61,615 bases of DNA from Bacillota bacterium (GCA_012521805.1 JAAYLQ010000127.1:1-61615), one strand, 5' to 3'. Positions 12,735 to 54,230 are shown, numbered from the stretch's first letter. The notes: generated by a model from the letters alone, not told the origin. Program-made: numbers and translations.

Positions 12735-13916
12735 ATGAGTCATATCCGCTTGAGGCCGATTATTTTTATAACTGCCGCGGTTTTATGTTTTTCAATATCT
12801 GTTTCGGCAGTCGAATTGGACCTAACAGTCAAGGCTGCCTTGTTAATGGATGCCCACAGCGGCCAAATATTTTACGAAAAAGATATCGATGAGCCGCTGC
12901 CGATTGCCAGCATATCCAAACTGATGACCCTGGTTCTAGTTCTAGAAGCCTTAGACGCAGAAAAGATTGCTCTTTCTGATGTAGTTACTACCAGTGACTA
13001 CGCAGCCTCCATGGGGGGATCCCAGGTTTGGCTGGAACCAGGAGAACAGCTAACTCTCCAGGAGCTGCTGTATGCGATAGCGGTAGGTTCGGCAAATGAC
13101 GCAGCGGTGGCTGTAGCAGAATATCTGGCTGGATCCGAAGCTGCTTTTGCAGAGAGGATGAACCAGCGGGCAGAAGAGTTGGGCTTAACTAACACTGAAT
13201 TTAGTAATGCCAGTGGTCTGCCGCCAAACCTGCTGGGTGGCAGTGGCAGACAAGTAATGAGTGCCAGAGATGTGGCGACTTTGGCTCGGCATGCGTTAAC
13301 TGTGCCGCTGTTATTGGAATTTGTTTCAACTTACGAATACACAATGCGAGCCGACTCAACAAAAAAGCCAGTGCTCTGGAACTACAACAAACTGCTCCGC
13401 CGCTATCCGGGAGTTGATGGATTAAAAACAGGATTTACCACCGAGGCTGGATACTGCTTAGCAGCTACCGCTGAACGGGATGGACTAAGGCTGATTGCAG
13501 TTGTTCTTGGCAGTAAGAACGAAGCCAGCCGTGAAAGTGATGTTACAAAACTGCTGAATTATGGTTTTAGTGAGTATACCAGACACCTTGTCTTACCGAA
13601 GCAGTCTGTTGTAGGAGAAATAGTTGTACCGAAGGGTATTCCGGAAACTGTTAATGTAGTTGTGAGTCAAGACTTTTTTGTTACAGTAAAAAGAGGCGAG
13701 CAAGCTCAGATCAGTACCGAAATCACAATTTATGATACTCTGTCAGTGCCAATTACCACCGATACAGCAGTCGGTAAGATTACTGCGTTCCTGGATGGAC
13801 AGTTTTTATCAGAAATTGAGCTGATTCCGGAAATTGATGTGGCAAAAGCAGGCATAACAGATTTGATCATCCGGATCTTTCAGCACATGGTTTACCAATT
13901 GACCGAAGGAAGCTGA
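12735..13916 (+). CDS. dacF: D-alanyl-D-alanine carboxypeptidase (sporulation-type, DacF-like)
   Basis: A signal peptide is present, together with the SxxK (SISKLMT), SxN (SANDAA) and KTG (KTGFT) motifs. It lies directly upstream of spoIIAA-spoIIAB-sigF, as dacF does in B. subtilis. Confidence 0.88.
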   Translation: MSHIRLRPIIFITAAVLCFSISVSAVELDLTVKAALLMDAHSGQIFYEKDIDEPLPIASISKLMTLVLVLEALDAEKIALSDVVTTSDYAASMGGSQVWLEPGEQLTLQELLYAIAVGSANDAAVAVAEYLAGSEAAFAERMNQRAEELGLTNTEFSNASGLPPNLLGGSGRQVMSARDVATLARHALTVPLLLEFVSTYEYTMRADSTKKPVLWNYNKLLRRYPGVDGLKTGFTTEAGYCLAATAERDGLRLIAVVLGSKNEASRESDVTKLLNYGFSEYTRHLVLPKQSVVGEIVVPKGIPETVNVVVSQDFFVTVKRGEQAQISTEITIYDTLSVPITTDTAVGKITAFLDGQFLSEIELIPEIDVAKAGITDLIIRIFQHMVYQLTEGS

Positions 13917-13941: not shown

Positions 13942-13970
13942 GCAGGAATTTACAGGTAAAGGATGAATAA
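13942..13970 (+). promoter_or_regulatory. sigma-H-type promoter of the spoIIA operon
   Basis: The sequence is GCAGGAATT (13942-13950), an 11-nt spacer, then GATGAATAA (13962-13970). This fits RNAGGAWWW-N11-RNNGAATWW at every specified position, about 50 nt upstream of spoIIAA. Confidence 0.7.
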
Positions 13971-14020: not shown

Positions 14021-14353
14021 TTGCTGTCGTCGGAAACGGTGAACGGGGCTCTAATTATTACACTCGAAGGTGAACTAGATCTGCATACTGCACCACCCTT
14101 TAAGCAGTATGTTGATGAGCAGCTGGCTGGTAATGACCTGATTAAAGATTTAATTCTTCGCATGGATAAGATTAAATTTATCGATAGTTCTGGGCTGGGA
14201 GTAATTTTGGGGCGCTATAAACAAATCCAGAAGCGTGGAGGCAGACTGATTTTTGTTGCCTGCAGCCCTCAAGTGTACCGTATTCTTAAATTATCCGGTA
14301 TGCAGAAAATTGCTTACTTTACTGATTCAGTAAAAGAAGCACTATCTTTATAA
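14021..14353 (+). CDS. spoIIAA: anti-sigma-F factor antagonist
   Basis: A STAS-domain protein with the phosphorylatable Ser context (FIDSSGLGVILGRYK). TTG start with an RBS. Confidence 0.9.
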   Translation: MLSSETVNGALIITLEGELDLHTAPPFKQYVDEQLAGNDLIKDLILRMDKIKFIDSSGLGVILGRYKQIQKRGGRLIFVACSPQVYRILKLSGMQKIAYFTDSVKEALSL

Positions 14354-14369
14354 GGGGGAGGAGTAAGAA

Positions 14370-14801
14370 ATGGAGGTTAAAAATTGGATTAAAATAGAAT
14401 TTCCGAGTGAATCAGTAAATGTGATGTTTGCTCGGACAGCGATTGCTCTGTTCGCATCCCAATTGGAACTTACTCTTGAAGAAATTGAAGAAATTAAAGT
14501 TGCAGTATCCGAGGCGGTATCCAACTGTGTAATCCATGCATATCGCAACAGTTATGGGAATATTGTTCTAACTGCCCAATACTCCGACGCTGAACTGGAA
14601 GTCACTGTAGAGGACTTTGGCTGCGGTATCCCCGATATCGAACAAGCTTCGGAAGCAAGTTTCACAACAATTCCAGAAGAACGAATGGGTTTAGGATTAG
14701 TTTTTATCCACGAACTAATGGATCATGTTACAATCACATCTGCAGTTGGGAAAGGCACAAAAGTAGTGATGACTAAAACAGTACCGGAAAACAGAGGATA
14801 G
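14370..14801 (+). CDS. spoIIAB: anti-sigma-F factor (serine protein kinase)
   Basis: A GHKL ATPase fold (AVSEAVSNCVIHAY, DFGCGI, GLGLVFI), placed between spoIIAA and sigF. Confidence 0.92.
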   Translation: MEVKNWIKIEFPSESVNVMFARTAIALFASQLELTLEEIEEIKVAVSEAVSNCVIHAYRNSYGNIVLTAQYSDAELEVTVEDFGCGIPDIEQASEASFTTIPEERMGLGLVFIHELMDHVTITSAVGKGTKVVMTKTVPENRG

Positions 14802-14809
14802 GTTTAAAG

Positions 14810-15565
14810 ATGAGCAGCTGGTCGATGGATTTCAGCGAATATCCGGTGTTATCTGGTAAAGAAGTGCACACTCTGCTCAAACAAACGAAATTAGGGGATA
14901 ATGAAGCTAGACAGAAATTGATAGAGTCCAATCTGCGTTTAGTGCGAAGTATTGTAGCACGCTTTGCAGACCGCGGTCACGAAATGGACGACTTGTTTCA
15001 AATCGGATGTATTGGTTTAGTTAAAGCGATTGATGATTTTGATCTATCTTATGATGTAAAGTTTTCCACTTACGCTGTTCCTAAAATCATAGGAGAAATA
15101 AAACGCTATATCAGAGAGTCATCTCCACTAAAAGTGTCCCGATCTCTACGGGAACTCGCAAGTAGAGGGATTGCGGTCAAAGATCAGTTAACTAAGAAGT
15201 TAGGACGCACTCCACTGATCAGTGAGATCGCTCAAGAACTTGGTACTGCGAAAGAAGATTTAATTGCTGCCTTGGAGGCTGTATCCCCGGTTCTTTCGCT
15301 GCAGCAGGTGGTTCACGAAGATGAGGGTGATTCCATCCTGCTAGAGGACCAAGTGGCGGTTGAACCAGAAGAAACTTCTCTATACTTAAAGGACATACTC
15401 CGAAGACTTGATGAAACTGAGCGGCGGTTATTGCTGCTGCGTTATATAGCTGAGAAGAGCCAGATGGAGGTTGCAGCTGATATTGGGATCTCGCAAGCAC
15501 AAGTGTCACGCATTGAGAAGAGAATTCTACAGCAGCTTAGGAAACAACTGCAGACGAAAGGATGA
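14810..15565 (+). CDS. sigF: RNA polymerase sporulation sigma factor F
   Basis: Sigma-70 regions 2-4 are present (NLRLVRSIVARF, DLFQIGCIGLVKAIDDFD, SQMEVAADIGISQAQVSRIEKR). The spoIIA operon context fits. Confidence 0.93.
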   Translation: MSSWSMDFSEYPVLSGKEVHTLLKQTKLGDNEARQKLIESNLRLVRSIVARFADRGHEMDDLFQIGCIGLVKAIDDFDLSYDVKFSTYAVPKIIGEIKRYIRESSPLKVSRSLRELASRGIAVKDQLTKKLGRTPLISEIAQELGTAKEDLIAALEAVSPVLSLQQVVHEDEGDSILLEDQVAVEPEETSLYLKDILRRLDETERRLLLLRYIAEKSQMEVAADIGISQAQVSRIEKRILQQLRKQLQTKG

Positions 15566-17054: not shown

Positions 17055-17062
17055 TCCACTAG

Positions 17063-17097
17063 AAAAAACAAGCTGTACAAAAGCAGCTTGTTTTTTT
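17063..17097 (+). terminator. intrinsic terminator after the GNAT gene
   Basis: The hairpin is AAAAAACAAGCTG-tacaaaag-CAGCTTGTTTTTTT. It has A/T flanks on both sides and could be bidirectional. Confidence 0.85.
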
Positions 17098-17241
17098 CTG
17101 TCTGCCTACAATAACAGCTTGTACATGGCGAATAATCTATCTGTGACGACAGAGGATTTTGTGGGATGGACAAGGATTTGGAATAATTATGTCGAACACG
17201 TTTAGTGTTAAGCTTTGTTAATGAACATTGGAGGGGTAGTA

Positions 17242-17856
17242 ATGATCAACATCATTATTAGTGGCGGTCCTATCATGATTCCTTTGCTGCTCTGTTCGGT
17301 AGTGGCAGTAGCTGTAGCACTTGAGAGATTGTGGTATTTATTAAGGTCAAGAACTGATACAGAAGACTTAATGGAAGATATTCAGCTGGCATTGGGACAG
17401 GGTAAGGTTCTGGAAGCGATGCAGGTAGCAAGGAAATCGCGGGGTCCGGTAGCTGCTATCCTCTCAGCGGGAATAGCTTTCTATGACCGTGACAAGGCAG
17501 AAATTAGAGAGCGGATGCAGGAAATCGGAAATGAAGAAATTTATAAGATGGAAAAACGAATGAACATCCTTAATATGATTATCAGTATTGCTCCTATGTT
17601 GGGTTTATTAGGTACGGTAACTGGAATCATAGATGCTTTTAATGTGATGGGAGCAATGCAGGGGATTCACCAACCCAGCGATTTAAGCACCGGTATTGCT
17701 CAAGCGTTAATTACTACTGCCGCTGGATTAATGATTGCCATACCTACGATGGCAGTTACAGCGTATTTAAACGGCATCATTGACCGCAATATTGCAGAAA
17801 TGTCTAAGTGTTCAAGTGAACTGCTGGACATTTTAGGTGTCAGAGGTGAAGAGTAA
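17242..17856 (+). CDS. MotA/TolQ/ExbB proton-channel family protein
   Basis: Three TM segments are present, with the C-terminal conserved region (APMLGLLGTVTGIIDAF...GIAQALITTAAGLMIAIP). ATG 17242 follows GGAGGGG. Confidence 0.85.
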   Translation: MINIIISGGPIMIPLLLCSVVAVAVALERLWYLLRSRTDTEDLMEDIQLALGQGKVLEAMQVARKSRGPVAAILSAGIAFYDRDKAEIRERMQEIGNEEIYKMEKRMNILNMIISIAPMLGLLGTVTGIIDAFNVMGAMQGIHQPSDLSTGIAQALITTAAGLMIAIPTMAVTAYLNGIIDRNIAEMSKCSSELLDILGVRGEE

Positions 17857-18260
17857 TGGAATTTAAGCGCAGAAGACGTAATCCTTTCGCTCAACCTGAC
17901 ATGACACCTATGATTGACGTTATCTTTCATCTATTGATTTTCTTTATGGCATTTTCTGTTTTGTACCAAACTACAATGACAATCAAGGTTGAGCTGCCTA
18001 AAGCTGTAAGCGGTTCTGATGTACGCACGGATGTTTTTGAAGTTAATGTGAGCCAAGATGGGGTTATTTATCTCAACAATAAGATGGTTACCGGTCCTGA
18101 GCTTGAGCAGGCATTAACTGAAGCACTCTCGCGAAACCCAAATTTAGCCGTCGTGGTCAGCAGTGATCGGCGTGCTACCGTTGAGCAGTGGGTGAGCGCA
18201 ATGGATATTGTTTCCAGAGTTGGTGTAGACAGCATTCATATCGGTACACAGAAACCTTAG
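17856..18260 (+). CDS. ExbD/TolR family biopolymer transport protein
   Basis: A 134-aa protein with one TM segment carrying the conserved Asp (DMTPMIDVIFHLLIFF) and a periplasmic domain (VVVSSDRRATVEQWVSAMD). The start forms a TAATG overlap with the upstream gene. Confidence 0.85.
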   Translation: MEFKRRRRNPFAQPDMTPMIDVIFHLLIFFMAFSVLYQTTMTIKVELPKAVSGSDVRTDVFEVNVSQDGVIYLNNKMVTGPELEQALTEALSRNPNLAVVVSSDRRATVEQWVSAMDIVSRVGVDSIHIGTQKP

Positions 18261-18278
18261 AAAAAGGTGGATCATAGC

Positions 18279-19298
18279 ATGATGAATTATGGAGATAAGC
18301 GGGACAGTAATTTAAATATTTTTATTTTTATATCCCTTATCATCCATGCCGTTATTTTCTGGTTTGGTCCAGAATGGGATTCTCTCAAGAATTTCGGTGT
18401 GGAGGGAACAGCACAGGGGGGAGTAATCCGGGTTATCTACTCTCAACCCAGCCCAGCAAGGGAACTGTCTCCGATTACTGATCCAACCTCGCAAACAACT
18501 GCTCCGCAGGTGGAAAGACCCCGGCCTACTGAAGAGCCGTCAAAAGAGCATCCAGCAGCTACGCCAGTCGTTCCTGAATCTCGCGACAACATTACCCCTC
18601 CTGCTCGGACGCGGCCTGAAGCTGTGGAAGTAAAACCACCTACTCCGCCTGTTGTGACAGAAACGCTGCCGGAACGAGAACCGGAAGAAGTCGCCACTGA
18701 GCTGATAACCAGTGAGTCCGGAAAAGAGCTCTACGTCGAACAGTTGGAGACAGAGTCTGAAATTGAACCTGAACAAGTTATTGAGCAGGAAAGCGAACCA
18801 GAAGTCGAGGTTGAACAAAATCTAGATATTGAACAGGAGTCAGAAACGACTGAAGAACAGAGTGTGGACGAATCTGGTGTCTCCGGAACAGGTACAAATG
18901 AGATGGGGGACATTACAGATGGTTCTGGTTCTGTCCAAGAATCTGGTTTTGGTGAAGCGGAAATTGCACCACCTCCTCCGCCGCCACCAGCGGGAGGATC
19001 AGTCCTAAACATCTCTGGAAATGGTGGAGTTCCGTATCCGAAAAATGCAGAGAATGAAAAAGTTGAAGGCGTTGTGCAGCTTGAGGTTCTCATTAGCTCA
19101 AATGGAAGTGCCCTCGCAGCGGATATTAGCCAATCTTCCGGTGATCTGCGCCTGGATCGTCAGGCACAGTGGACGTTTCTTAACAACTGGGAGTTTCTCG
19201 GTGCCGAATTTGATTATATCTTAGTTATTGATGTAAGTTTTTCTATTACAGAGGGAATAAACGTAACTCCCGTAGCGATTAGATGGGCGGAAGAGTAA
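18279..19298 (+). CDS. TonB/TolA-like energy transducer with a long acidic/proline-rich linker
   Basis: The N-terminal TM segment has an SxxxH motif (ISLIIHAV). A linker of about 230 aa is rich in Pro and Glu and includes PPPPPPP. The C-terminal TonB_C-like domain reads PYPKNAENEKVEGVVQLEVLISSNGSALAADISQSSGDLRLDRQA. Confidence 0.8.
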   Translation: MMNYGDKRDSNLNIFIFISLIIHAVIFWFGPEWDSLKNFGVEGTAQGGVIRVIYSQPSPARELSPITDPTSQTTAPQVERPRPTEEPSKEHPAATPVVPESRDNITPPARTRPEAVEVKPPTPPVVTETLPEREPEEVATELITSESGKELYVEQLETESEIEPEQVIEQESEPEVEVEQNLDIEQESETTEEQSVDESGVSGTGTNEMGDITDGSGSVQESGFGEAEIAPPPPPPPAGGSVLNISGNGGVPYPKNAENEKVEGVVQLEVLISSNGSALAADISQSSGDLRLDRQAQWTFLNNWEFLGAEFDYILVIDVSFSITEGINVTPVAIRWAEE

Positions 19299-19317
19299 AT
19301 AGGAAGGAGTGCATGCT

Positions 19318-21357
19318 GTGTTGTCTCTCTCACAAAGGACAAAACTTTTGATCACGGTCATTATGATGCTCGCAGTGTGTACCACCAGCACCGCTGCTGA
19401 TGAACAAGAGGTCAATCTGGAAATTGCCAACGAGTATATCCGGATTATTATCAATAACCTAGAGGAAAACATGGGCAGATTCTCTGTTGGGACAACCGGA
19501 GGAGATCCTGACCGGGTTGGGGATGAGAATCAGCATTTAATCTATGGCGGTGCAGAGCCGTGGACGTCCTATACCACTGTGCGGATAGGTAATCAAAACT
19601 GGGTTTACGGCAACCCAACCAATCGGCGAGCAGGTCGTAATGGTTTGTATGGTGAAGTAGTGCAGCCTCCAACCATCGTTGATGATAGTCTGGTGAGTAG
19701 TTGGCAGTTGGGGCCAATTCTTGTAACCCAAACCCTCACTTTCGCCCGCAGCATCACTTCGGGATTAATGGACACTGCTAAGATCGAGTATCAACTGGTG
19801 AATACTGACAGTGTAGCCCATATGGTTGGTTTAAGATTAGTAATCGATACTATGCTTGGCCAAAATGATGGTGCTCCTTTCCGGTTAAATGATCGGGCAA
19901 TTGTAACAGACACTGTTTTTTACAGAGATCAGATGCCCGCTTTCTGGCAAGCATTTGATTCCCTGTCTAATCCACGGGTTATGTCCCAGGGAACACTGGT
20001 TGGTGGAGAGGTTACTCCTCCAGACCGAGTATATTTTAGCAACTGGGGCAGTATTGTTGATGGTTTGTGGAACTTTGAGTTTCAGCCTGGTAGGGACTTT
20101 ACGCGCTCTGGTGAGTTTGAGCTTGATAGCGCCATCGCTATGTATTGGGATCAAACGCCTTTAGCACCTAACGAAACACGCACTTATGTTTCTTATTATG
20201 GACTTGGCGGCGTTACAATTGCTCCCGGCGAATTGTCAGTCGGCTTAACCTCTCCATGGCAGGTTCGGGGAGATCAGAGACACCGCGAATCATTTACAAT
20301 TGTTGCTTATATCCAAAACACTGGTCAGGGTGAAGCCCGAAATGTCACGGCGACCTTATCGCTACCTCCTGAATTAGAATTGGTCAACGCCAGTGCGACA
20401 CCACTCAAACGGCATTTTGGCAGTCTAGACGTAAATGAAACGATTCAGACCAGCTGGCAGGTAATACCAACCGGTAATAGTTCCGGTACTGTTACATATC
20501 AAGTTCAAGTTGATGCGGAAAACAGCGAATCTAGTATTGCCAACCGAAACATTGAAATTGTTAGACCTGACTATTTAGACATCAAGCTGGAGGGACCACT
20601 GGCATTAGGGGTTGAAAATGAGCGTCTCTCTCCTCTCCCAATGAAGGTAAAGGCTGAAATAACGAACATTGGAGGAGCGGCCGCTCACAATGTATATGCA
20701 GTGCTTTCGCATCCGATGTTCAGCCTGCCCCAAGGTGAGCATGCTGTCAAACATCTAGGAACAATCGAACCCAATAAGACAGCTCAAGCAGTTTGGCATC
20801 TAGATCCGTCAGGAGTTTCTGGCCAATTGGTTTATTCACTGACAGTTTATTCCGACACGGATAGATATGGTTCAGATCCTAATTTCGTTATCGTTCCTTA
20901 TATTGAACCCAAAGTATTTGTTGGGGAACCGCAGACTACTAAGTCCAAAATCACTGCAGGCGAGTATTTTTCAGTTCCGATAATGGCAACAAATATTCCA
21001 GATTTTCGCAAGGCGGAATTAGAGATCGGATTTGACCCAACAATGGTTGAAATTGTCGGCAGAACACTAGATCTTACTCGGGGTACTCTATTTGTTGATC
21101 CAACCCGAGATCCAGCTAAACTATTAGATTGGCAGACACCAATTGTTGATAATATTAACGGCCTTGTTCGCGGTATTGTTGGTGATCGGGGCAGCGACAG
21201 CCCGCTGCAATCAGCGTATGGAACTTTAATTACTATTCACTTTAGGGCAAAGCAAAGTGGCACAACCGAAATTAAAATCAATGATGTTTCAGTATATGAT
21301 AGTAAGCTCTATCCAATTGCAGTGACTGCAGTGAATCGAAAAATCGTGATCGAATAA
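19318..21357 (+). CDS. secreted multidomain protein: unknown N-terminal domain, two Ig-like (CARDB/NEW3-like) modules and a C-terminal cohesin-like domain
   Basis: A signal peptide is present (LLITVIMMLAVCTTSTAADE). Two repeats of the type FTIVAYIQNTGQGEARNVTATLSLPPELELV and MKVKAEITNIGGAAAHNVYAVLSHPMFSLP are seen. The C-terminus (GEYFSVPIMATNIPDFRKAELEIGFDPTMVEIVG...TLITIHFRAKQSGTTEIKIN) resembles type-I cohesin. Domain names come from recall only. The start is GTG 19318 or 19309. Confidence 0.55.
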   Translation: MLSLSQRTKLLITVIMMLAVCTTSTAADEQEVNLEIANEYIRIIINNLEENMGRFSVGTTGGDPDRVGDENQHLIYGGAEPWTSYTTVRIGNQNWVYGNPTNRRAGRNGLYGEVVQPPTIVDDSLVSSWQLGPILVTQTLTFARSITSGLMDTAKIEYQLVNTDSVAHMVGLRLVIDTMLGQNDGAPFRLNDRAIVTDTVFYRDQMPAFWQAFDSLSNPRVMSQGTLVGGEVTPPDRVYFSNWGSIVDGLWNFEFQPGRDFTRSGEFELDSAIAMYWDQTPLAPNETRTYVSYYGLGGVTIAPGELSVGLTSPWQVRGDQRHRESFTIVAYIQNTGQGEARNVTATLSLPPELELVNASATPLKRHFGSLDVNETIQTSWQVIPTGNSSGTVTYQVQVDAENSESSIANRNIEIVRPDYLDIKLEGPLALGVENERLSPLPMKVKAEITNIGGAAAHNVYAVLSHPMFSLPQGEHAVKHLGTIEPNKTAQAVWHLDPSGVSGQLVYSLTVYSDTDRYGSDPNFVIVPYIEPKVFVGEPQTTKSKITAGEYFSVPIMATNIPDFRKAELEIGFDPTMVEIVGRTLDLTRGTLFVDPTRDPAKLLDWQTPIVDNINGLVRGIVGDRGSDSPLQSAYGTLITIHFRAKQSGTTEIKINDVSVYDSKLYPIAVTAVNRKIVIE

Positions 21358-21378
21358 GTCTTAAGGGAGGATATTTTG

Positions 21379-22683
21379 ATGAAAAGCTCGCGGATTGTTA
21401 GTGGTTTTCTTGTACTGGTACTGGTTATCAGCTGTACAGTTCAGCCTGTCCTGGCCAGTGTAACAGATGTTCCTCGGGATCACTGGGCATATCAAGCGGT
21501 AATATCATTGGTTAACCGCGGATTTTTAGCAACTTATGAGGATGGTAGTTTTCAAGGAACCAATCCGGTTGATCGGTACACACTAGCTGTCACTGTAGCA
21601 CGAATTTTAGATGAAATCGAAGCTGGCCGGGTTATGGGTTCCCAAAGTGATATCGACTTGCTGCGTGATTTGAGTAATGAATTCCGTACTGAGCTGGTCC
21701 AATTTTACGCAGATAAACAGCTGCTGGAAAAAAATGTTGACGAAACCCAAAAATTAGGGTTAGCTACAGAAGAACGGGTTAACAAGGTAGTCGCCAGCCA
21801 AGCGGAATTGATGGAAACGGTTGCTCGTTTAAAAGCAGATATTATGGAAGAAGCATCCAAAACGGCGGAAATCTTGAAAGAACAGAGAAGTCTCATTGAA
21901 CAAACGCAGGCGGCAGTAAATGTCCAGGCAGAGTCACTCCAATCGCAGCATGAACAGATCCAGACTCACCAGGAAAGCATCTCTGAACTGCAGCAGGCAG
22001 TCATCAAAGTTGATGAACAGCTGAGGTTACAGCAAGCGGATCTCCAGCGTCTGCAAAATTGGACTGCTGAAAAAGACGCAATTTTTTCGATGCTGGTATT
22101 TGATGCGGATTTTCAATCTTCCTTAGAGGAGCTTTCAACCCAATTAGCCCAGGAGCTTGAAACTCGCGAGCAGGAACAGCAGGGAGAACTGCAGGCACTG
22201 CAGCAAAAAGTGGACGAACTGCTTGCTGCCATTGCCAGAACTGATGGAGAATTGGTTCGCAGCTACGAGCAGTTGAAAGTTCAACTAGAGAATTTGAATA
22301 GGCGAAATCAGGAATTAGAAAAAGATCTCCAGAATATTGCGGTATTGCTTGAACAAGAAAAGCAGAACCGCACTGTTCAAGCTCAGAGCTACGACAGTGC
22401 TCTTACAGAACTGCGGGCAGAAATCGAGCGGGTCGCTGCTCAGGTAGGTATTTCGGAGGAAGAATTGGCAGCACTAAACAAACGAATTTCTGATGAGATT
22501 GCGGTGCAGATGAATGCAGCAATTATTAGGGAGCGGGGGCTATCCACTACAGTTGCTGAGCTGCAGGCTGAATTCGACACTTACAAAGCAGCAGCCGAAA
22601 AGGAAATAAAATCAGCGAAGAGTACTGCCATGATAGCTATTGCAGCAGCCGCGGTGAGCGTTTTAATCGGATTCATAAAATAG
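21379..22683 (+). CDS. SLH-domain / long coiled-coil protein with a C-terminal transmembrane anchor
   Basis: A signal peptide is followed by one SLH domain (DVPRDHWAYQAVISLVNRGFLATYEDGSFQGTNPVDRYTLAVTVARIL). About 300 aa of heptad-rich, Q/E/L-rich sequence follow, then a terminal hydrophobic helix (TAMIAIAAAAVSVLIGFIK). Confidence 0.7.
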   Translation: MKSSRIVSGFLVLVLVISCTVQPVLASVTDVPRDHWAYQAVISLVNRGFLATYEDGSFQGTNPVDRYTLAVTVARILDEIEAGRVMGSQSDIDLLRDLSNEFRTELVQFYADKQLLEKNVDETQKLGLATEERVNKVVASQAELMETVARLKADIMEEASKTAEILKEQRSLIEQTQAAVNVQAESLQSQHEQIQTHQESISELQQAVIKVDEQLRLQQADLQRLQNWTAEKDAIFSMLVFDADFQSSLEELSTQLAQELETREQEQQGELQALQQKVDELLAAIARTDGELVRSYEQLKVQLENLNRRNQELEKDLQNIAVLLEQEKQNRTVQAQSYDSALTELRAEIERVAAQVGISEEELAALNKRISDEIAVQMNAAIIRERGLSTTVAELQAEFDTYKAAAEKEIKSAKSTAMIAIAAAAVSVLIGFIK

Positions 22684-22700
22684 AATACCACTTGATGTTT

Positions 22701-22738
22701 AAATCTAACCTGTTTTACAAGCAGGTTAGATTTTTTTT
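22701..22738 (+). terminator. intrinsic terminator closing the ExbB...SLH operon
   Basis: The hairpin is TCTAACCTG-ttttacaag-CAGGTTAGA followed by TTTTTTTT. Confidence 0.88.
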
Positions 22739-45399: not shown

Positions 45400-45471
45400 C
45401 TTTACTCTGATTTTGGCAGGATTTTACAATTTAATGTCGAATATTTAAGAACAATTTAAGGAGGGAAATCG

Positions 45472-46107
45472 ATGGGAGCTCGTACTGATCAGTTAACAGC
45501 GCCAGCTATTGAATGGGACAAGTTAACCGATGAAGAGATTGTCAGAATTGCCCAGCAGGGTAATCGCGACGCCGAAGAACACTTGATAAGAAAGTACCAG
45601 AAAATGGTCTTCATTTGGACCCGCTCATATTTTCTACAAGGAGCCGAACCGGATGATCTGATCCAAGAAGGTATGATCGGCTTGTACAAAGCAATTCGAG
45701 ATTTTTCCGTCGGTACTTCTTCTTTTTGGTCATTCGCTAAGTTGTGCATCATCCGCAACGTAATCAGTGCCATCAAGGGTACTACACGCCAAAAACATCT
45801 TCCGCTAAATTCCTACACATCCCTACATCGTCCGATAAAGGACACTGAAGGTGACCGTACACTTTTAGAAACTTTGACCAACCACAGGGTGGACGACCCT
45901 GAAGTTCTGGTGATCAACCGCGAAGAACTGCAGGCAACCAGCACTACTATCCAATCTATCCTTTCCAAATTTGAAAATGAGGTGTTTAGACTGTACATTT
46001 CCGGATTTACTTATCGCGAAATTGCTGAGCAGCTCAACACCCACACTAAATCTGTAGATAACGCTCTCTGCCGGATCAAAACCAAAATAGAAAAGAAATT
46101 ATCGTAG
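45472..46107 (+). CDS. sigH: RNA polymerase sigma factor SigH (early sporulation / transition state)
   Basis: There is strong similarity to B. subtilis Spo0H as recalled: SYFLQGAEPDDLIQEGMIGLYKAIRDF...FAKLCIIRNVISAIKGTTRQKHLPLNSYTSL...DRTLLE...VKSVDNALCRIKTKIEK. Confidence 0.88.
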   Translation: MGARTDQLTAPAIEWDKLTDEEIVRIAQQGNRDAEEHLIRKYQKMVFIWTRSYFLQGAEPDDLIQEGMIGLYKAIRDFSVGTSSFWSFAKLCIIRNVISAIKGTTRQKHLPLNSYTSLHRPIKDTEGDRTLLETLTNHRVDDPEVLVINREELQATSTTIQSILSKFENEVFRLYISGFTYREIAEQLNTHTKSVDNALCRIKTKIEKKLS

Positions 46108-52597: not shown

Positions 52598-53827
52598 CTA
52601 TTCAACTAATTTAACCCGATGATAAACCTTCTTACCCTTCCGCACTATCAAATATCCTTCATCGTCAAATTCTTGTTGAGTAACTAAATAGTCATGCTGT
52701 TTTATTTGGCGATCTGAGAGATATATTCCTCCCTGCTGAATTAATCTTCTTCCCTCCGACCTAGTACTTACTAACTTAACTGTAGTCAGCAGAGTAATTA
52801 AGTCCACTCCCTCACCAAAGTCAGACAGAGATATTTCTGTGGTTGGAATGGATTCGGCATCCCGTCCACCGCCAAACAAAGCTTTTGCTGCAGCTTGAGC
52901 CTCATCGGCAGCCTGTTTACCATGGACATTCTTAGTAATCTCATAAGCCAAAATTTCCTTAGCGTAATTAATCTCGGCACCCTCTAAGGCACCTAATCTT
53001 CTTACTTCATCCATTGGCAGGAAAGTCAGCAGACCGAGGAGGCGCTCCACATTGCTGTCTTCCACATTACGCCAATATTGATAGAAATCATAGGGGCTGG
53101 TGAGATTTGGATCCAACCAAACCGCTCCTGATTCCGTTTTTCCCATTTTCCGACCATCACTTGTAGTCAGGAGCGTAAAAGTCATGCCGTATGCCTGTTT
53201 ACCTGTCATTTTTCTGATCAGTTCTACTCCCCCAAGGATATTAGACCATTGGTCGTTGCCGCCCATCTGAATTACACAGTCATAGTCCTGGAAGAGCTTA
53301 TAAAAGTCAAAAGACTGCATAATCATATAGTTAAACTCCAGAAAAGTTAGACCCCGTTCCATTCTTGACTTATAGCATTCCGCGGAAAGCATCCGGTTTA
53401 CCGAGAAGTGGACCCCAATTTCCCGGATAAATTCAATATAATTAAGAGACCGCAGCCAGTCAGCGTTGTTAACCATCAAGGCTTTGCCATCACTAAAATC
53501 TATGAAGCGAGAGAGCTGTTTTTTAAAAGCTTGTGCGTTAGCTTCAATTTCTTCAACGGTCATCATGCGGCGCATATCCGTCTTACCTGTCGGATCCCCC
53601 ACCATGACGGTGCCTCCACCAATCAGAGCAATCGGTCGATGTCCTGCTCGCTGCATATGGGCCATTGCCATCACTGTTAAGAAATGACCAACTGTTAAGC
53701 TGCTGGCCGTTGGGTCAAATCCGATATAGAAAGAAACCTTTTCTTTACCTAATAATTCGCGGATCTCATCTTCATGAGTAGTTTGTTCGATGAATCCCCG
53801 TTCTTTTAGAATGTCGAATACATTCAC
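52598..53827 (-). CDS. tyrS: tyrosine--tRNA ligase
   Basis: The HIGH motif (LTVGHFL) and the KMSKS-like motif (KMGKT) are present, with a C-terminal S4 domain ([16 protein letters not shown]). GTG 53827 lies 9 nt after AGGGAG. Confidence 0.96.
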
Positions 53828-53849
53828 AAATACCAACTCCCTAGTTTAT

Positions 53850-54085
53850 TATTGCTGAATATAAAAAATGGCGGTTACCAAAAAGGACGAGCTTTACCCG
53901 TGGTACCACCTTACTTTGCATTAAAAAAATTAATGCCTCTAAATCATGATAACGGATGATTCGAACCCGTGAAGGTTTCCCTTCAATGCTCCAGAACCGT
54001 AATTCGAAAACCGTGTGCTGCAGAACTCGCACCAACCGTTCTGCTCTCTGAAATTGTAACCACGTCTTTCTACTTAATTCCTTCT
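53850..54085 (-). promoter_or_regulatory. T-box leader (tyrosine-specific) controlling tyrS
   Basis: On the minus strand, Stem I has an AGAGAG bulge and a GGTGCGA distal loop. A UAC (Tyr) codon lies in ...GAAUUACGG... (53999-54001). The T-box sequence AAGGTGGTACCACGGG lies within 53897-53916 and is followed by a U-run before the RBS. Confidence 0.8.
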
Positions 54086-54230
54086 CAGCATATAATCATT
54101 ATTTACACGATTATGTTCAATAATACCATAATTCCACTGGATAATCAACCAAATCCATACAGGCAGGACAAAACAAACCGATACCGAAGTAAGGTTGTAA
54201 ACTATATGCACTAATGAAGAGGTGTCTAAA

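What the first reader, a model, noticed from the sequence alone, without database searches (positions are those of the whole stretch)
17242..22683. Terminator-bounded five-gene operon encoding ExbB-ExbD-TonB/TolA-like, a 680-aa secreted Ig/cohesin-like protein and an SLH-coiled-coil-TM protein: a possible Tol-Pal-like envelope machine without Pal, TolB or a TonB-dependent receptor
What the sequence shows: the five genes are tightly packed, with a 1-nt overlap and then gaps of about 18-21 nt. A strong terminator precedes the cluster at 17063-17097 and another closes it at 22701-22738. The motor signatures are intact. These are the MotA/TolQ/ExbB C-terminal helices, the ExbD TM Asp (MIDVIF), the SxxxH TM motif of TonB/TolA, and a TonB_C-like C-terminal domain. 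The linker is about 230 aa of Glu/Pro-rich sequence, which is unusually long.

What is missing: there is no TonB-dependent barrel receptor gene anywhere in the window. Instead, the downstream partners are a large secreted beta-rich protein and a peptidoglycan/secondary-polymer-binding SLH protein with a roughly 300-aa coiled coil.

Inference: the gene logic parallels tolQ-tolR-tolA-tolB-pal(-cpoB). That is, a PMF motor, an extended transducer, a large periplasmic beta protein and a wall-binding protein or coiled coil, but built from unrelated parts. In Firmicute-type envelopes, SLH domains (as in OmpM) take the wall-tethering role that Pal/Lpp play in Proteobacteria. This cluster could therefore be an undescribed PMF-energised envelope-tethering or remodelling system.

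Two further observations are only suggestive. The cluster sits immediately upstream of the che/fli operon. A TGTCGAA (Spo0A-box-like) heptamer lies at 17190-17196 in the putative promoter spacer, but this is not statistically significant.
Basis: partly seen in the sequence, partly recalled or inferred. Interest (0 to 1): 0.8.

Follow-up and report, generated by a model that had tools for sequence, protein, structure and literature searches.

The report
Receptor-less TonB envelope machine operon
A five-gene operon pairs a proton-driven ExbB/ExbD/TonB motor with a secreted glycan-binding-like protein and a wall-binding coiled-coil tether instead of a nutrient receptor. It is conserved gene-for-gene across several double-membraned phyla that lack Tol-Pal, so it is a strong candidate for their missing energised envelope system.

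Summary
Five co-oriented, tightly packed genes (17242-22683), bounded by two strong terminators, encode:
- ExbB/TolQ and ExbD/TolR;
- a TonB-family transducer;
- a 682-aa secreted protein (g4);
- a 435-aa protein with signal peptide, SLH domain, coiled coil and C-terminal TM helix (g5).

New findings:
1. The gene order is conserved in all 80 related genome loci examined (Limnochordia-type Bacillota and Halanaerobiales). It is also conserved in Candidatus Margulisiibacteriota and one Armatimonadetes MAG, all diderm Terrabacteria.
2. The conserved core of g4 is an unannotated N-terminal galactose-mutarotase-like beta-supersandwich. The cohesin is lineage-specific.
3. g5 has the Thermotoga Omp-alpha architecture. 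Its SLH/stalk is homologous to the SlpA/OmpM outer-membrane tethers and carries OmpM-type residues.
4. The "insignificant" TGTCGAA belongs to a bipartite sigma-H-type promoter found in 58 of 66 orthologous loci. The window's own sigH gene carries the same motif.
5. Published surveys report no TonB-dependent receptors in Halanaerobiales, and no pal or tolB in diderm Firmicutes.

Best reading: a receptor-less, PMF-driven envelope-tethering or remodelling machine that parallels tolQ-tolR-tolA-tolB-pal. The function is inferred, not shown. I found no prior description. Interest is high.

The parts
17058..17102 (+). Intrinsic terminator closing the upstream GNAT gene; it insulates the operon from read-through
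   Evidence: Perfect hairpin plus T-run seen in the sequence. MFE -19 kcal/mol, z -5.6, 0 of 200 shuffles fold as well.
17173..17197 (+). Sigma-H-type promoter: -35 AGGATTT (17173-17179), 11-nt spacer, -10 GTCGAAC (17191-17197). TGTCGAA (17190-17196) is also a perfect Spo0A-box sequence.
   Evidence: AGGA-N13-16-TCGAA is present upstream of g1 in 58/66 orthologous loci, against 0.2 expected from shuffles. The motif occurs only twice in the window; the other copy lies upstream of sigH. The SigH motif is described as -35 AGGA / -10 GAAT in PMC12456013.
17242..17856 (+). g1: ExbB/TolQ-type proton-channel stator subunit (204 aa from the ATG)
   Evidence: PF01618 1.4e-30. The best NCBIfam hit is TolQ TIGR02796 at 6.5e-26, below the equivalog cutoff. 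Conserved in all loci with enough flank.
17856..18260 (+). g2: ExbD/TolR-type stator subunit with TM Asp (MIDVIF)
   Evidence: PF02472 8e-28. The best NCBIfam hit is TolR at 3e-15, below cutoff. TM Asp motif in 69/69 orthologues.
18267..19298 (+). g3: TonB-family force transducer. It has an N-terminal TM helix with S-x3-H, a Glu/Pro/Thr/Ser-rich linker of about 190 aa, and a C-terminal TonB_C domain (aa ~250-343).
   Evidence: PF03544 1.4e-9 and TIGR01352 1.6e-8, both above cutoff. S-x3-H in 61/61 and the YPxxA...G.V CTD motif in 54/61 orthologues. The only PDB hits are TonB CTDs, and they are weak (E 0.018-0.035).
19309..21357 (+). g4: 682-aa secreted multidomain beta protein (signal peptide aa 1-30)
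   Evidence: AF2 model with mean pLDDT 91.5. The full-length family has 614 hits at E<=1e-3 among the candidates scored in the protein DB and is found in 389 species genomes.
19414..20223 (+). g4 N-terminal domain (aa 36-305): galactose-mutarotase-like beta-supersandwich with no Pfam family. It is the conserved core, with the invariant signature R176-x3-D180-T-x-L-G-x-N186-D187-x-A-P, plus P84-W-x-S87 and W213-x2-F-D217.
   Evidence: Domain-only AF2 model, pLDDT 84, pTM 0.87. Foldseek matches GH94 phosphorylase N-domains, cyclic glucan synthase, GH116, GalM and YidC P1 (E 4e-8 to 1e-5, TM 0.5-0.59). 3,255 cluster representatives at E<=1e-3. Invariant residues.
20233..20898 (+). g4: two Ig-like CARDB/NEW3-type domains (aa 309-418 and 423-530)
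   Evidence: PF07705 4e-7 and PF10633 5e-7 on the first domain. Strand pattern in the AF2 model.
20923..21351 (+). g4 C-terminal type-II-like cohesin domain (aa 539-681); lineage-specific, and not alignable in the Margulisbacteria orthologue
   Evidence: The family profile hits ScaB/SdbA cohesin structures at 6e-14 to 8e-4. Foldseek matches 1qzn and 2xdh. No alignment beyond aa ~436 to the Margulisbacteria orthologue.
21376..22683 (+). g5: Omp-alpha-type tether. It has a cleavable signal peptide (aa 1-27), an OmpM/SlpA-like SLH domain (aa ~30-75), a proline-free coiled coil of about 336 aa (aa ~75-410) and a C-terminal hydrophobic helix (aa ~413-432).
   Evidence: PF00395. Best PDB hits are SlpA 7zgx at 3.7e-13 and OmpM stalks 8bz2/8bys/8bym at 2e-9 to 2e-8. 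OmpM-type residues are conserved in 61-67 of 68 orthologues, and the heptad signal is 0.89 against 0.20 for shuffles. The C-terminal anchor is present in nearly every complete orthologue.
22701..22733 (+). Intrinsic terminator closing the operon
   Evidence: 15-bp stem plus T-run. MFE -17.4 kcal/mol, z -4.8.
45418..46107 (+). Putative regulator: the sigH gene (45472-46107) preceded by the same bipartite motif (AGGATTT-N11-GTCGAAT, 45418-45442)
   Evidence: NCBIfam SigH NF006148 at 253 bits, above the cutoff of 208. Motif match. Sequence.

Best explanation
The operon encodes a self-contained, PMF-powered envelope machine of double-membraned Terrabacteria.

Shown:
- g1 and g2 are an ExbB/ExbD-type stator with its proton-relay Asp.
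- g3 is a TonB-family transducer with the S-x3-H motor-coupling helix, a long extended linker and a TonB_C head.
- g4 is Sec-exported. Its conserved core is a glycan-binding-type beta-supersandwich.
- g5 is Sec-exported. It has an OmpM/SlpA-type SLH domain, a long coiled-coil rod and a C-terminal membrane helix.
- The five genes stay together, in this order, across several phyla.

Inferred:
- ExbB/ExbD convert proton flow into force on g3.
- The g3 head engages g4 and/or g5 in the periplasm, not a TonB-dependent barrel.
- g5 trimerises through its rod so that three SLH domains form one peptidoglycan-binding unit. It tethers a membrane to the wall: most likely the outer membrane, as for Thermotoga Omp-alpha.
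- g4 binds the wall glycan or the tether.
- Motor force is used to release, relocate or remodel these wall-membrane contacts, for example at growth or division sites.

This would be a functional parallel of TolQ-TolR-TolA-TolB-Pal built with non-homologous output proteins. In Firmicutes the operon is read from a sigma-H-type promoter, so it probably peaks at the transition to stationary phase or sporulation. In other phyla it uses other promoters, so the core function is not sporulation.
For: - Domain identities.
- Synteny: the five genes keep the same order and strand in all 80 genome loci with sufficient flank, including cultured Halanaerobiales. The same module occurs in Margulisiibacteriota-type loci L081, L084, L085 and L086, next to lptF/G and lnt. 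It also occurs in L083, in an Armatimonadetes MAG (L090), in Halanaerocella (L089) and in Halanaerobium (L091).
- Motor residues are universal.
- The g5 SLH domain carries W, Y(+2), G(+24) and R-Y(+30, +31), which PMC10628300 links to wall binding by OmpM. Its closest solved relatives are the OM tethers SlpA and OmpM.
- The g5 layout equals that of Omp-alpha: SLH, a 316-aa coiled coil and a hydrophobic C-terminus (PMC3387000, PMC10160955).
- The g5 anchor has its positive charges on the periplasmic side (2.5 K/R before the core, 0.44 after). That is atypical for an inner-membrane stop-transfer anchor.
- Receptors are absent. None is found in the window. None appears among the annotated genes within 7-9 kb in the 11 loci fetched with gene calls.
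- H. orenii has ExbB/ExbD/TonB together but no detectable receptors (PMC2626281).
- Among diderm Firmicutes, complete Ton systems were detected only in Negativicutes (PMC12204202).
- Diderm Firmicutes lack pal and tolB (PMC8871954).
- A SleB-type wall hydrolase directly follows g5 in 9/9 Halanaerobiales loci.
- Promoter evidence.
Against: - No direct evidence exists for any protein-protein contact. Structure-prediction jobs were exhausted and multimer modelling was not available.
- No free TonB-box-like N-terminal extension was found. The conserved N-terminal strand of g4 is packed into its domain in the AF2 model.
- The g3 linker and g5 rod lengths do not co-vary (rho 0.07 within Firmicutes), although they might if both spanned the same gap.
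- One lineage (L088) has no g5, and the Armatimonadetes g5 has no SLH.
- The g4 N-domain also occurs in proteins with no motor nearby (L087), so it is not intrinsically TonB-coupled.
- Absence of TonB-dependent receptors from this particular genome could not be tested.
- Which membrane holds the g5 helix is unknown.
Confidence: 0.5

Rival explanations
1. Ordinary Ton system. g1-g3 energise TonB-dependent outer-membrane transporters encoded elsewhere in the genome. g4 and g5 are envelope proteins that merely share the transcription unit.
For: g3 passes the Pfam and TIGRFAM TonB_C cutoffs and has the S-x3-H motif. tonB and exbBD are often unlinked from receptor genes (PMC12204202). The rest of this genome could not be searched.
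Against: Conservation of the g4 and g5 positions across Bacillota, Margulisiibacteriota and an Armatimonadetes MAG is hard to explain by chance co-location. No receptors were detected in H. orenii (PMC2626281). Ton systems (tonB plus TBDT) were not detected in diderm Firmicutes other than Negativicutes (PMC12204202). There is no receptor in the window, nor among the annotated genes within 7-9 kb in the 11 loci fetched with gene calls.
Confidence: 0.13
2. Glycan capture and import, or a surface-display system. g4 would be a cell-surface glycan-binding cohesin scaffold anchored through the SLH protein g5. TonB energy would drive polysaccharide uptake or release through an unidentified pore, as a Sus-like or cellulosome-like logic without SusC.
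For: The g4 N-domain has the fold of carbohydrate-enzyme N-domains. CARDB/NEW3 and cohesin modules are typical of surface proteins, and databases name homologues 'cellulosome anchor protein'.
Against: The cohesin is not alignable in the Margulisbacteria orthologue, and the shorter Armatimonadetes g4 (565 aa) has no cohesin hit on record. No dockerin partner is seen in the operon. In a diderm, SLH domains of the OmpM/SlpA type act in the periplasm (PMC10628300), and the g5 SLH is of that type. No CAZyme or transporter genes are co-conserved.
Confidence: 0.12
3. Sporulation- or germination-specific machine. It would be switched on by sigma-H/Spo0A to remodel the double-membraned sporangium envelope (asymmetric septum, engulfment, or conversion of inner membrane to outer membrane).
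For: A conserved sigma-H-type promoter contains a perfect 0A-box sequence. The operon lies directly downstream of dacF-spoIIAA-spoIIAB-sigF in Limnochordia-type genomes. A SleB-family hydrolase follows g5 in all Halanaerobiales loci.
Against: The same module exists in Margulisbacteria and Armatimonadetes, which are not known to sporulate, and there it lacks the motif. It is also present in Halanaerobium. In the diderm Firmicute Sporomusa, SigH motifs precede 16% of all TSSs, including envelope and division genes, so a sigma-H promoter does not imply sporulation specificity (PMC12456013).
Confidence: 0.12
4. Motility-associated motor: a gliding machine of the Agl/Glt type, or an accessory to the flagellar/chemotaxis genes downstream.
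For: Agl/Glt gliding machines use TolQR-like motors with TonB-like proteins (general knowledge). The cluster abuts cheW-fliM-fliY-cheA in the window.
Against: A strong terminator separates it from cheW. The che/fli adjacency is absent from the Halanaerobiales loci and the other phyla. No Glt-like components are present.
Confidence: 0.03

Closest known systems
Tol-Pal system (tolQ-tolR-tolA-tolB-pal) of Gracilicutes
   Same: It has the same logic and gene order: an ExbB/TolQ-family and ExbD/TolR-family stator, a TonB/TolA-family transducer, a soluble periplasmic beta-rich protein, then a peptidoglycan-binding membrane-anchored protein. The best NCBIfam matches of g1 and g2 are TolQ and TolR. 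The module occurs in lineages that lack Pal and TolB (PMC8871954, PMC12204202).
   Different: g4 is a mutarotase-like supersandwich plus Ig domains, not a TolB beta-propeller. g5 is an SLH/coiled-coil/TM-helix protein, not an OmpA-like lipoprotein. The g1 and g2 scores are far below the TolQ/TolR equivalog cutoffs. The g3 head matches TonB_C, not TolA. There is no ybgC or cpoB. No functional data exist.
Ton system (ExbB-ExbD-TonB with TonB-dependent transporters)
   Same: Stator and transducer are bona fide family members, with PF01618, PF02472 and PF03544 above cutoff, the TM Asp, the S-x3-H motif and a Pro/Glu-rich linker.
   Different: No TonB-dependent barrel is linked, and published surveys report none in Halanaerobiales. 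Instead two non-barrel proteins are invariably co-encoded.
Thermotoga Omp-alpha (OmpA1) and the SlpA/OmpM outer-membrane tethers of diderm Terrabacteria
   Same: [quoted passage not shown] Its SLH and proximal stalk are sequence-homologous to SlpA (3.7e-13) and OmpM (about 1e-9), with OmpM-type Tyr residues (PMC3387000; PMC10628300).
   Different: It has no beta-barrel, unlike OmpM and SlpA. It is encoded inside a motor operon, unlike any described Omp-alpha, OmpM or SlpA. Its membrane location has not been determined. Direct homology to T. maritima Omp-alpha was not tested.
vWA-type motor-driven force transducers (Williams-Jones et al. 2025, PMC12204202)
   Same: Both are TolQR/ExbBD-like stators co-encoded with non-canonical periplasmic partners of unknown function. 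They illustrate the diversity of 5:2-motor-driven envelope systems.
   Different: In those systems the transducer head itself is replaced by a vWA domain, and they occur in Proteobacteria, PVC and Bacteroidetes. Here the head is TonB_C, the novelty lies in the clients, and the hosts are Terrabacteria.
Cellulosomal anchoring scaffoldins (type-II cohesin plus SLH, e.g. SdbA, ScaB)
   Same: The g4 C-terminal domain is a type-II-like cohesin. Databases auto-name homologues 'cellulosome anchor protein'. An SLH protein is encoded next door.
   Different: Cohesin and SLH sit on different proteins. The cohesin is not conserved across the module. No dockerins or cellulases are present. The hosts are diderms, where this SLH type is periplasmic. 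The database name is almost certainly a misannotation.

Membership tests
Ton system | ExbB (MotA/TolQ/ExbB channel) and ExbD with a conserved TM aspartate | tested here: met
   PF01618 1.4e-30 and PF02472 8e-28. Asp motif in 69/69 orthologues.
Ton system | TonB: N-terminal TM helix with S-x3-H, an extended Pro-rich linker and a C-terminal TonB_C domain | tested here: met
   PF03544 at 38.7 bits against a cutoff of 24.6, and TIGR01352 at 34.8 against 27.1. S-x3-H in 61/61. The linker is 20% Glu and 15% Pro.
Ton system | A TonB-dependent outer-membrane barrel client with a TonB box | tested here: inconclusive
   None in the 61.6-kb window. None among the annotated genes of the 11 loci fetched with gene calls. 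The whole genome could not be searched. The literature reports none in H. orenii (PMC2626281), and no Ton system in diderm Firmicutes other than Negativicutes (PMC12204202).
Tol-Pal system | TolQ/TolR/TolA orthologues | tested here: not met
   TolQ TIGR02796 scores 91 bits against a cutoff of 221, and TolR TIGR02801 scores 57 against 127. These are the best hits but are far below the equivalog thresholds. The g3 head matches TonB_C and TonB structures, not TolA.
Tol-Pal system | TolB beta-propeller periplasmic protein | tested here: not met
   The g4 AF2 model is a supersandwich, two Ig domains and a cohesin, with no propeller.
Tol-Pal system | Pal: an OmpA-like peptidoglycan-binding outer-membrane lipoprotein | tested here: not met
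   g5 has SLH, not an OmpA-like domain. The Cys in its signal peptide is not conserved, and the signal peptides are type I.
SlpA/OmpM tether superfamily | N-terminal SLH domain with wall-binding residues followed by a coiled-coil stalk | tested here: met
   PDB hits to SlpA at 3.7e-13 and OmpM at 2e-9 to 2e-8. Y(W+2) in 67/68, G(+24) in 63/68, R(+30) in 62/68 and Y/F(+31) in 61/68, with clear heptad periodicity.
SlpA/OmpM tether superfamily | C-terminal outer-membrane beta-barrel | tested here: not met
   g5 ends in a single hydrophobic helix of about 20 aa, and nearly every complete orthologue does the same.
Omp-alpha (Thermotogae) | SLH, about 300 aa of coiled coil and a hydrophobic C-terminus | tested here: met
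   The architecture matches the descriptions in PMC3387000 and PMC10160955.
Omp-alpha (Thermotogae) | Association with the outer membrane (toga), and sequence homology to T. maritima Omp-alpha | not testable with these tools
   Localisation needs fractionation or cryo-ET. I had no T. maritima Omp-alpha sequence to compare.
Cellulosomal cohesin scaffoldin | Cohesin module with a cognate dockerin partner | tested here: inconclusive
   The cohesin fold is present. No dockerin-like gene is in the operon. The cohesin does not align in the Margulisbacteria orthologue. A genome-wide dockerin search was not possible.
Sigma-H (Spo0H) promoters | -35 AGGAwWW and -10 RnnGAAT separated by 11-12 nt, upstream of regulon genes | tested here: met
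   17173-17197 matches, with the last base of the -10 being C. The same layout is found upstream of sigH (45418-45442) and spoIIAA (13944-13968). It is conserved in 58/66 loci. The AGGA/GAAT consensus comes from PMC12456013; the spacing comes from my knowledge of the B. subtilis consensus. Actual sigma-H dependence is not testable here.

The most novel reading that the evidence does not exclude
This is the Terrabacterial counterpart of Tol-Pal: an ancient, PMF-energised machine in which a TonB-like transducer mobilises an Omp-alpha/OmpM-type SLH tether through a glycan-binding periplasmic adaptor (g4). It would keep the outer membrane attached and let it invaginate during division, and in Firmicutes during sporulation. 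It would explain the 'orphan' ExbB/ExbD/TonB of Halanaerobiales. It would also imply that motor-driven tether trafficking either predates the Gracilicutes/Terrabacteria split or evolved twice with unrelated parts in the same gene order.
Probability: 0.3. Interest if true: 0.9.

Novelty: new variant of a known kind. Interest (0 to 1): 0.8.

Why it matters
Diderm Terrabacteria tether their outer membrane with SLH proteins (OmpM, SlpA, Omp-alpha) and lack Pal, Lpp and Tol-Pal. How they energise or relocate these tethers during growth and division is an open question.

The ExbB/ExbD/TonB genes of Halanaerobiales have been an acknowledged puzzle since 2009, because no receptors were found. This module offers concrete candidate clients for that motor.

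It also does four other things:
- It defines a large unannotated domain family (3,255 cluster representatives).
- It corrects a widespread 'cellulosome anchor protein' misannotation.
- It supplies a compact five-gene target for genetics, cryo-ET and AF3 modelling.
- It bears on how the outer membrane was maintained, and lost, in early bacterial evolution.

Tried and rejected
1. The full-length g4 Foldseek search was dominated by generic multi-Ig hits (integrins, PrgB, ciliary proteins) and was uninformative. A domain-only model solved this.
2. I tested co-variation of g3 linker length with g5 rod length, as evidence that both span one compartment. There is none within Firmicutes (rho 0.07). 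With outgroups the signal is weak and confounded by lineage (rho 0.27).
3. I looked for a free TonB-box-like N-terminal extension. The conserved NEYIRIxVN strand of g4 is part of the folded domain, and mature g5 starts directly with SLH. No candidate was found.
4. A lipoprotein reading of g5 (VISC) is rejected, because the Cys is not conserved.
5. I first considered TGTCGAA as a lone Spo0A box. It is better explained as the -10 region of a bipartite sigma-H-type promoter, although a dual role is not excluded.
6. The che/fli linkage is rejected. It is restricted to about 30 Limnochordia-type loci and is separated by a terminator.
7. The anti-phage defence (Zorya-like) reading is rejected. Only a marginal ZorA fold-level hit appears, at E 5e-4.
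8. Attempts to name the organisms behind L083, L087 and L088 through exact look-ups of neighbouring housekeeping proteins returned no names.
10. Five full-text literature searches found no description of the g4/g5 partnership. Subscription-only papers are not covered.

Full report
**1.

The + strand between 17242 and 22683 carries five consecutive ORFs. Pfam and NCBIfam identify them as follows:
- g1: MotA/TolQ/ExbB, PF01618, 1.4e-30.
- g2: ExbD/TolR, PF02472, 8e-28.
- g3: a TonB_C-bearing protein, PF03544 1.4e-9 and TIGR01352 1.6e-8, both above their cutoffs.
- g4: a 682-aa protein with CARDB/NEW3 Ig-like hits.
- g5: a 435-aa SLH protein.

g1 and g2 overlap by one base, and the other gaps are 6-18 nt. 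A perfect hairpin plus T-run precedes the cluster (17058-17102, -19 kcal/mol, z -5.6). Another closes it (22701-22733, -17.4 kcal/mol, z -4.8).

The surrounding genes are ordinary Firmicute housekeeping and sporulation genes. Upstream lie infB ... pnp, spoIIM, xerD-like, dacF-like, spoIIAA, spoIIAB, sigF, a PHP phosphoesterase and a GNAT. Downstream lie cheW-fliM-fliY-cheA-cheY-cheC-cheD-cheB-cheR, then mutS/mutL, sigH, lexA and tyrS with its T-box. No TonB-dependent receptor is encoded in the window.

**2. The neighbourhood is conserved over great evolutionary distance.**

- g4 belongs to a large family of full-length homologues: 614 hits at E<=1e-3 among the candidates scored, and 389 species-level genomes.
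- I ran tblastn with the window's proteins against the 80 best genome loci. g1-g2-g3-g4-g5 appear in the same order and strand wherever enough flanking DNA exists. This covers Limnochordia-type MAGs and cultured Halanaerobiales (Halonatronum, Orenia, Halanaerobacter, Frackibacter).
- Look-ups of more distant g4 relatives gave the same module in Candidatus Margulisiibacteriota (L084). Three lineages share its extended synteny: LOG-exbB-exbD-tonB-g4-small SLH protein-holB-S21-lptF/G-TPR-...-lnt (L081, L085, L086).
- The module is also in an unnamed lineage (L083), an Armatimonadetes MAG (L090), Halanaerocella (L089) and Halanaerobium (L091).
- A homology search seeded with the Margulisbacteria protein returned named hits only from Margulisbacteria or Marinamargulisbacteria, apart from generic 'bacterium' labels and one archaeal label.
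- One lineage has only four genes, with no g5 (L088).
- The upstream sigF-PHP-GNAT genes are conserved mainly within Limnochordia-type genomes. The downstream che/fli genes follow the operon, sometimes after a 2-3 kb insertion, in about 30 Limnochordia-type loci but in no Halanaerobiales or other-phylum locus. The flagellar adjacency is therefore incidental.

**3. What the proteins are.**

*g1-g3* are a complete stator and transducer. The ExbD TM Asp is present in 69/69 orthologues. The g3 S-x3-H motif is present in 61/61, and the YPxxA...G.V motif at the start of the TonB head in 54/61. The window's linker is about 190 aa, 20% Glu and 15% Pro.

*g4* is Sec-exported, with type-I signal peptides in all orthologues. 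AlphaFold gives a confident model (pLDDT 91.5) with four parts:
- An N-terminal domain of about 270 aa.
- Two Ig-like domains.
- A C-terminal cohesin. The family profile hits type-II cohesins at 6e-14.

The N-domain has no Pfam family. A domain-only model (pLDDT 84, pTM 0.87) matches the galactose-mutarotase-like beta-supersandwich. That fold is found in the N-domains of GH94 phosphorylases, cyclic glucan synthase and GH116, in GalM, and in the periplasmic P1 domain of YidC (E 4e-8 to 1e-5, TM 0.5-0.59). It typically contacts glycans.

The N-domain is the conserved core. The Firmicute and Margulisbacteria proteins share 38% identity over the N-domain plus the first Ig domain, but do not align over the cohesin.

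An exhaustive profile search found 3,255 cluster representatives. Some have other architectures and no motor nearby, such as a PKD fusion in L087. All keep the signature R-x3-DT-x-LG-x-ND-x-AP plus PW-x-S and W-x2-FD. This suggests a conserved ligand-binding or catalytic site that the motor system has recruited.

*g5* has four parts:
- A cleavable signal peptide.
- An SLH domain that starts at the mature N-terminus.
- A 336-residue proline-free segment with strong heptad periodicity (0.89 against 0.20 in shuffles).
- A C-terminal hydrophobic helix, present in nearly every complete orthologue.

Total length varies from about 160 to 1,447 aa.

Its closest solved relatives are the outer-membrane tethers SlpA (3.7e-13) and OmpM (2e-9 to 2e-8). 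The monoderm S-layer protein Sap matches far less well (0.004-0.03). g5 conserves the residues that Silale et al. link to wall binding by OmpM: W, Y+2, G+24 and R-Y at +30/+31, present in 61-67 of 68 sequences (PMC10628300).

The overall layout is that of Thermotoga Omp-alpha: SLH, a 316-aa coiled coil of about 50 nm and a hydrophobic C-terminus. Omp-alpha is toga-associated and predicted to be trimeric (PMC3387000, PMC10160955).

The g5 anchor has 2.5 K/R on its periplasmic side against 0.44 after it, with only about 2 residues beyond the core. That runs against the positive-inside rule for an inner-membrane stop-transfer anchor. It is compatible with an Omp-alpha-like outer-membrane location, but the location is not established.

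**4. Regulation.**

- AGGA-N13-16-TCGAA occurs 40-70 nt (in a few loci up to about 150 nt) upstream of g1 in 58 of 66 orthologous loci. Shuffles give 0.2.
- The carriers include the Halanaerobiales loci L049, L079 and L076. Halanaerobium (L091) carries the TAGAA variant.
- Margulisbacteria, Armatimonadetes and the unnamed lineages lack it.
- In the window the motif occurs exactly twice. The second copy (45418-45442, AGGATTT-N11-GTCGAAT) lies immediately upstream of a gene that NCBIfam identifies as sigH (253 bits, cutoff 208).
- The region upstream of spoIIAA carries AGGAATT-N11-GATGAAT (13944-13968). spoIIA is a classical sigma-H target in Bacillus (my own knowledge).
- SigH promoters are described as -35 AGGA / -10 GAAT in the diderm Firmicute Sporomusa. 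There they precede 16% of TSSs, and the regulon is enriched in envelope and division genes (PMC12456013).

I conclude that in Firmicutes the operon is most likely sigma-H-dependent. TGTCGAA is more conserved than RnnGAAT requires, and it equals the Spo0A box. An overlapping Spo0A site therefore cannot be excluded.

The same module exists in phyla without sigma-H or sporulation, so the regulation is lineage-specific and the core function is not sporulation. In all nine Halanaerobiales loci a SleB-family wall hydrolase gene follows g5 directly. This is a lineage-specific link to peptidoglycan remodelling.

**5. Mechanism.**

Shown:
- The stator and TonB-family transducer are intact.
- Two exported partners are present. 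One has a glycan-binding-type fold. The other is an OmpM/SlpA-homologous wall-binding rod with a membrane helix.
- The five genes are strictly linked across phyla.

From the literature:
- H. orenii has ExbB/ExbD/TonB together but no detectable receptors, 'suggesting ... a different function' (PMC2626281).
- Among diderm Firmicutes, Ton systems (tonB plus TBDT) were found only in Negativicutes (PMC12204202).
- Atypical diderms lack pal and tolB (PMC8871954).
- Tol-Pal is confined to Gracilicutes (PMC12204202).

Inferred: the motor's force is delivered through the g3 head to g4 and/or g5. It would release, reposition or remodel SLH-mediated membrane-wall contacts. In that scheme g4 acts as a glycan- or tether-binding adaptor, analogous to TolB, and g5 acts as the mobile single-helix tether, analogous to Pal. 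The gene order mirrors tolQ-tolR-tolA-tolB-pal.

This is an analogy, not membership. g4 and g5 are unrelated to TolB and Pal, and g1/g2 fall far below the TolQ/TolR equivalog cutoffs.

**6. What argues against it, and what failed.**

- No free TonB box was found.
- The g3 linker and g5 rod lengths do not co-vary.
- g5 is missing in one lineage, and SLH is missing in another.
- The N-domain also exists without motors.
- The genome outside the window could not be scanned for receptors.
- Rival readings are listed in the report with their evidence. They are an ordinary Ton system, a glycan-capture or display system, a sporulation-specific machine, and motility. The defence-system reading is excluded.

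**7. Novelty and verdict.**

Five full-text searches found no description of this partnership. The most relevant survey describes other non-canonical motor partners (vWA proteins) but not this one.

I rate it a new variant of a known kind: a Ton/Tol-family motor with a new, receptor-less output module. It is conserved across diderm Terrabacteria. It bears directly on two open questions: the orphan TonB of Halanaerobiales, and how Tol-Pal-less diderms manage their outer-membrane tethers.

Interest 0.8.

Noticed in passing
window 45418-46107: The sigH gene (NCBIfam SigH, 253 bits) is preceded by a sigma-H-type promoter, AGGATTT-N11-GTCGAAT, identical in layout to the one before g1. This suggests positive autoregulation of sigH in this lineage. 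Its location, after a methionine gamma-lyase-family gene and before mgtC/surE, is not the cysS...rpmG-secE-nusG context I recall for sigH in Bacillus.
   Followed up: partly
window 13944-13968: There is a sigma-H-type promoter, AGGAATT-N11-GATGAAT, upstream of spoIIAA-spoIIAB-sigF (14021-15565). These genes follow a dacF-like PBP5 gene (12735-13916), the classical Bacillus arrangement. I used it as an internal positive control for the motif.
   Followed up: partly
L049, L061, L062, L070, L075, L076, L079, L089, L091 (about 20-900 nt downstream of g5): In all nine Halanaerobiales loci a SleB-family cell-wall hydrolase gene (PF07486 Hydrolase_2, with an N-terminal TM or signal segment) follows g5 on the same strand. 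This includes Halanaerobium. It is absent at this position in Limnochordia-type and Margulisbacteria loci.
   Followed up: partly
L081/L082 (Tara Oceans scaffolds; NCBI MAQ63796.1 labelled 'Actinobacteria bacterium'): The contig encodes LptF/G, Na+-NQR/Rnf and Lnt. It shares extended synteny with a Candidatus Margulisiibacteriota genome (L084). The Actinobacteria label on these marine MAG proteins is therefore almost certainly wrong, and Marinamargulisbacteria is the likely source.
   Followed up: partly
L087 7001-9508 (P0259), and P0254, P0256, P0261: The g4 N-terminal supersandwich domain, with its invariant signature intact, also occurs without any ExbBD-TonB neighbours. In L087 it is fused to PKD domains, in a 2.6-Mb contig with FrhB-like and GXGXG glutamate-synthase genes (possibly archaeal). 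It also occurs in large proteins of 1,088-1,578 aa, one of them with repetitive C-terminal extensions.
   Followed up: partly
L055 (g5 1,447 aa), L068 (1,039 aa), L077 (888 aa) against L081/L086 (161-162 aa): g5 length varies about nine-fold between lineages, while the SLH head and C-terminal anchor are kept. If the rod were a straight spacer, the implied lengths would run from about 12 to over 150 nm. The longest forms cannot simply span a periplasm.
   Followed up: no
L083 8001-10814 (P0170): This g4 variant of 937 aa has a long Pro/Thr-rich spacer and a second cohesin-like module at the C-terminus. It sits in a full five-gene module behind what looks like a sigma-70 promoter (TTGACA-N16-TATTTT).
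   Followed up: no
window 53880-54095 (- strand): A T-box leader (Rfam RF00230, 114.7 bits) lies upstream of the tyrosyl-tRNA synthetase gene (52598-53836, - strand). This is ordinary Firmicute regulation.
   Followed up: no
protein database names for g4 homologues: Many homologues are auto-annotated as 'cellulosome anchor protein' or 'cohesin domain-containing protein'. Given the conserved ExbBD-TonB context and the absence of cellulosomal genes, this name is misleading.
   Followed up: yes
window 18380-18440 (g3 aa ~45-60) and orthologues: A short conserved strand-like motif, GG(V/I)(I/V)x(V/I), lies about 20-30 aa after the g3 TM helix in 38 of 61 orthologues. It might correspond to the 'motor box' that TonB and TolA use to contact ExbD/TolR (PMC12204202).
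   Followed up: partly
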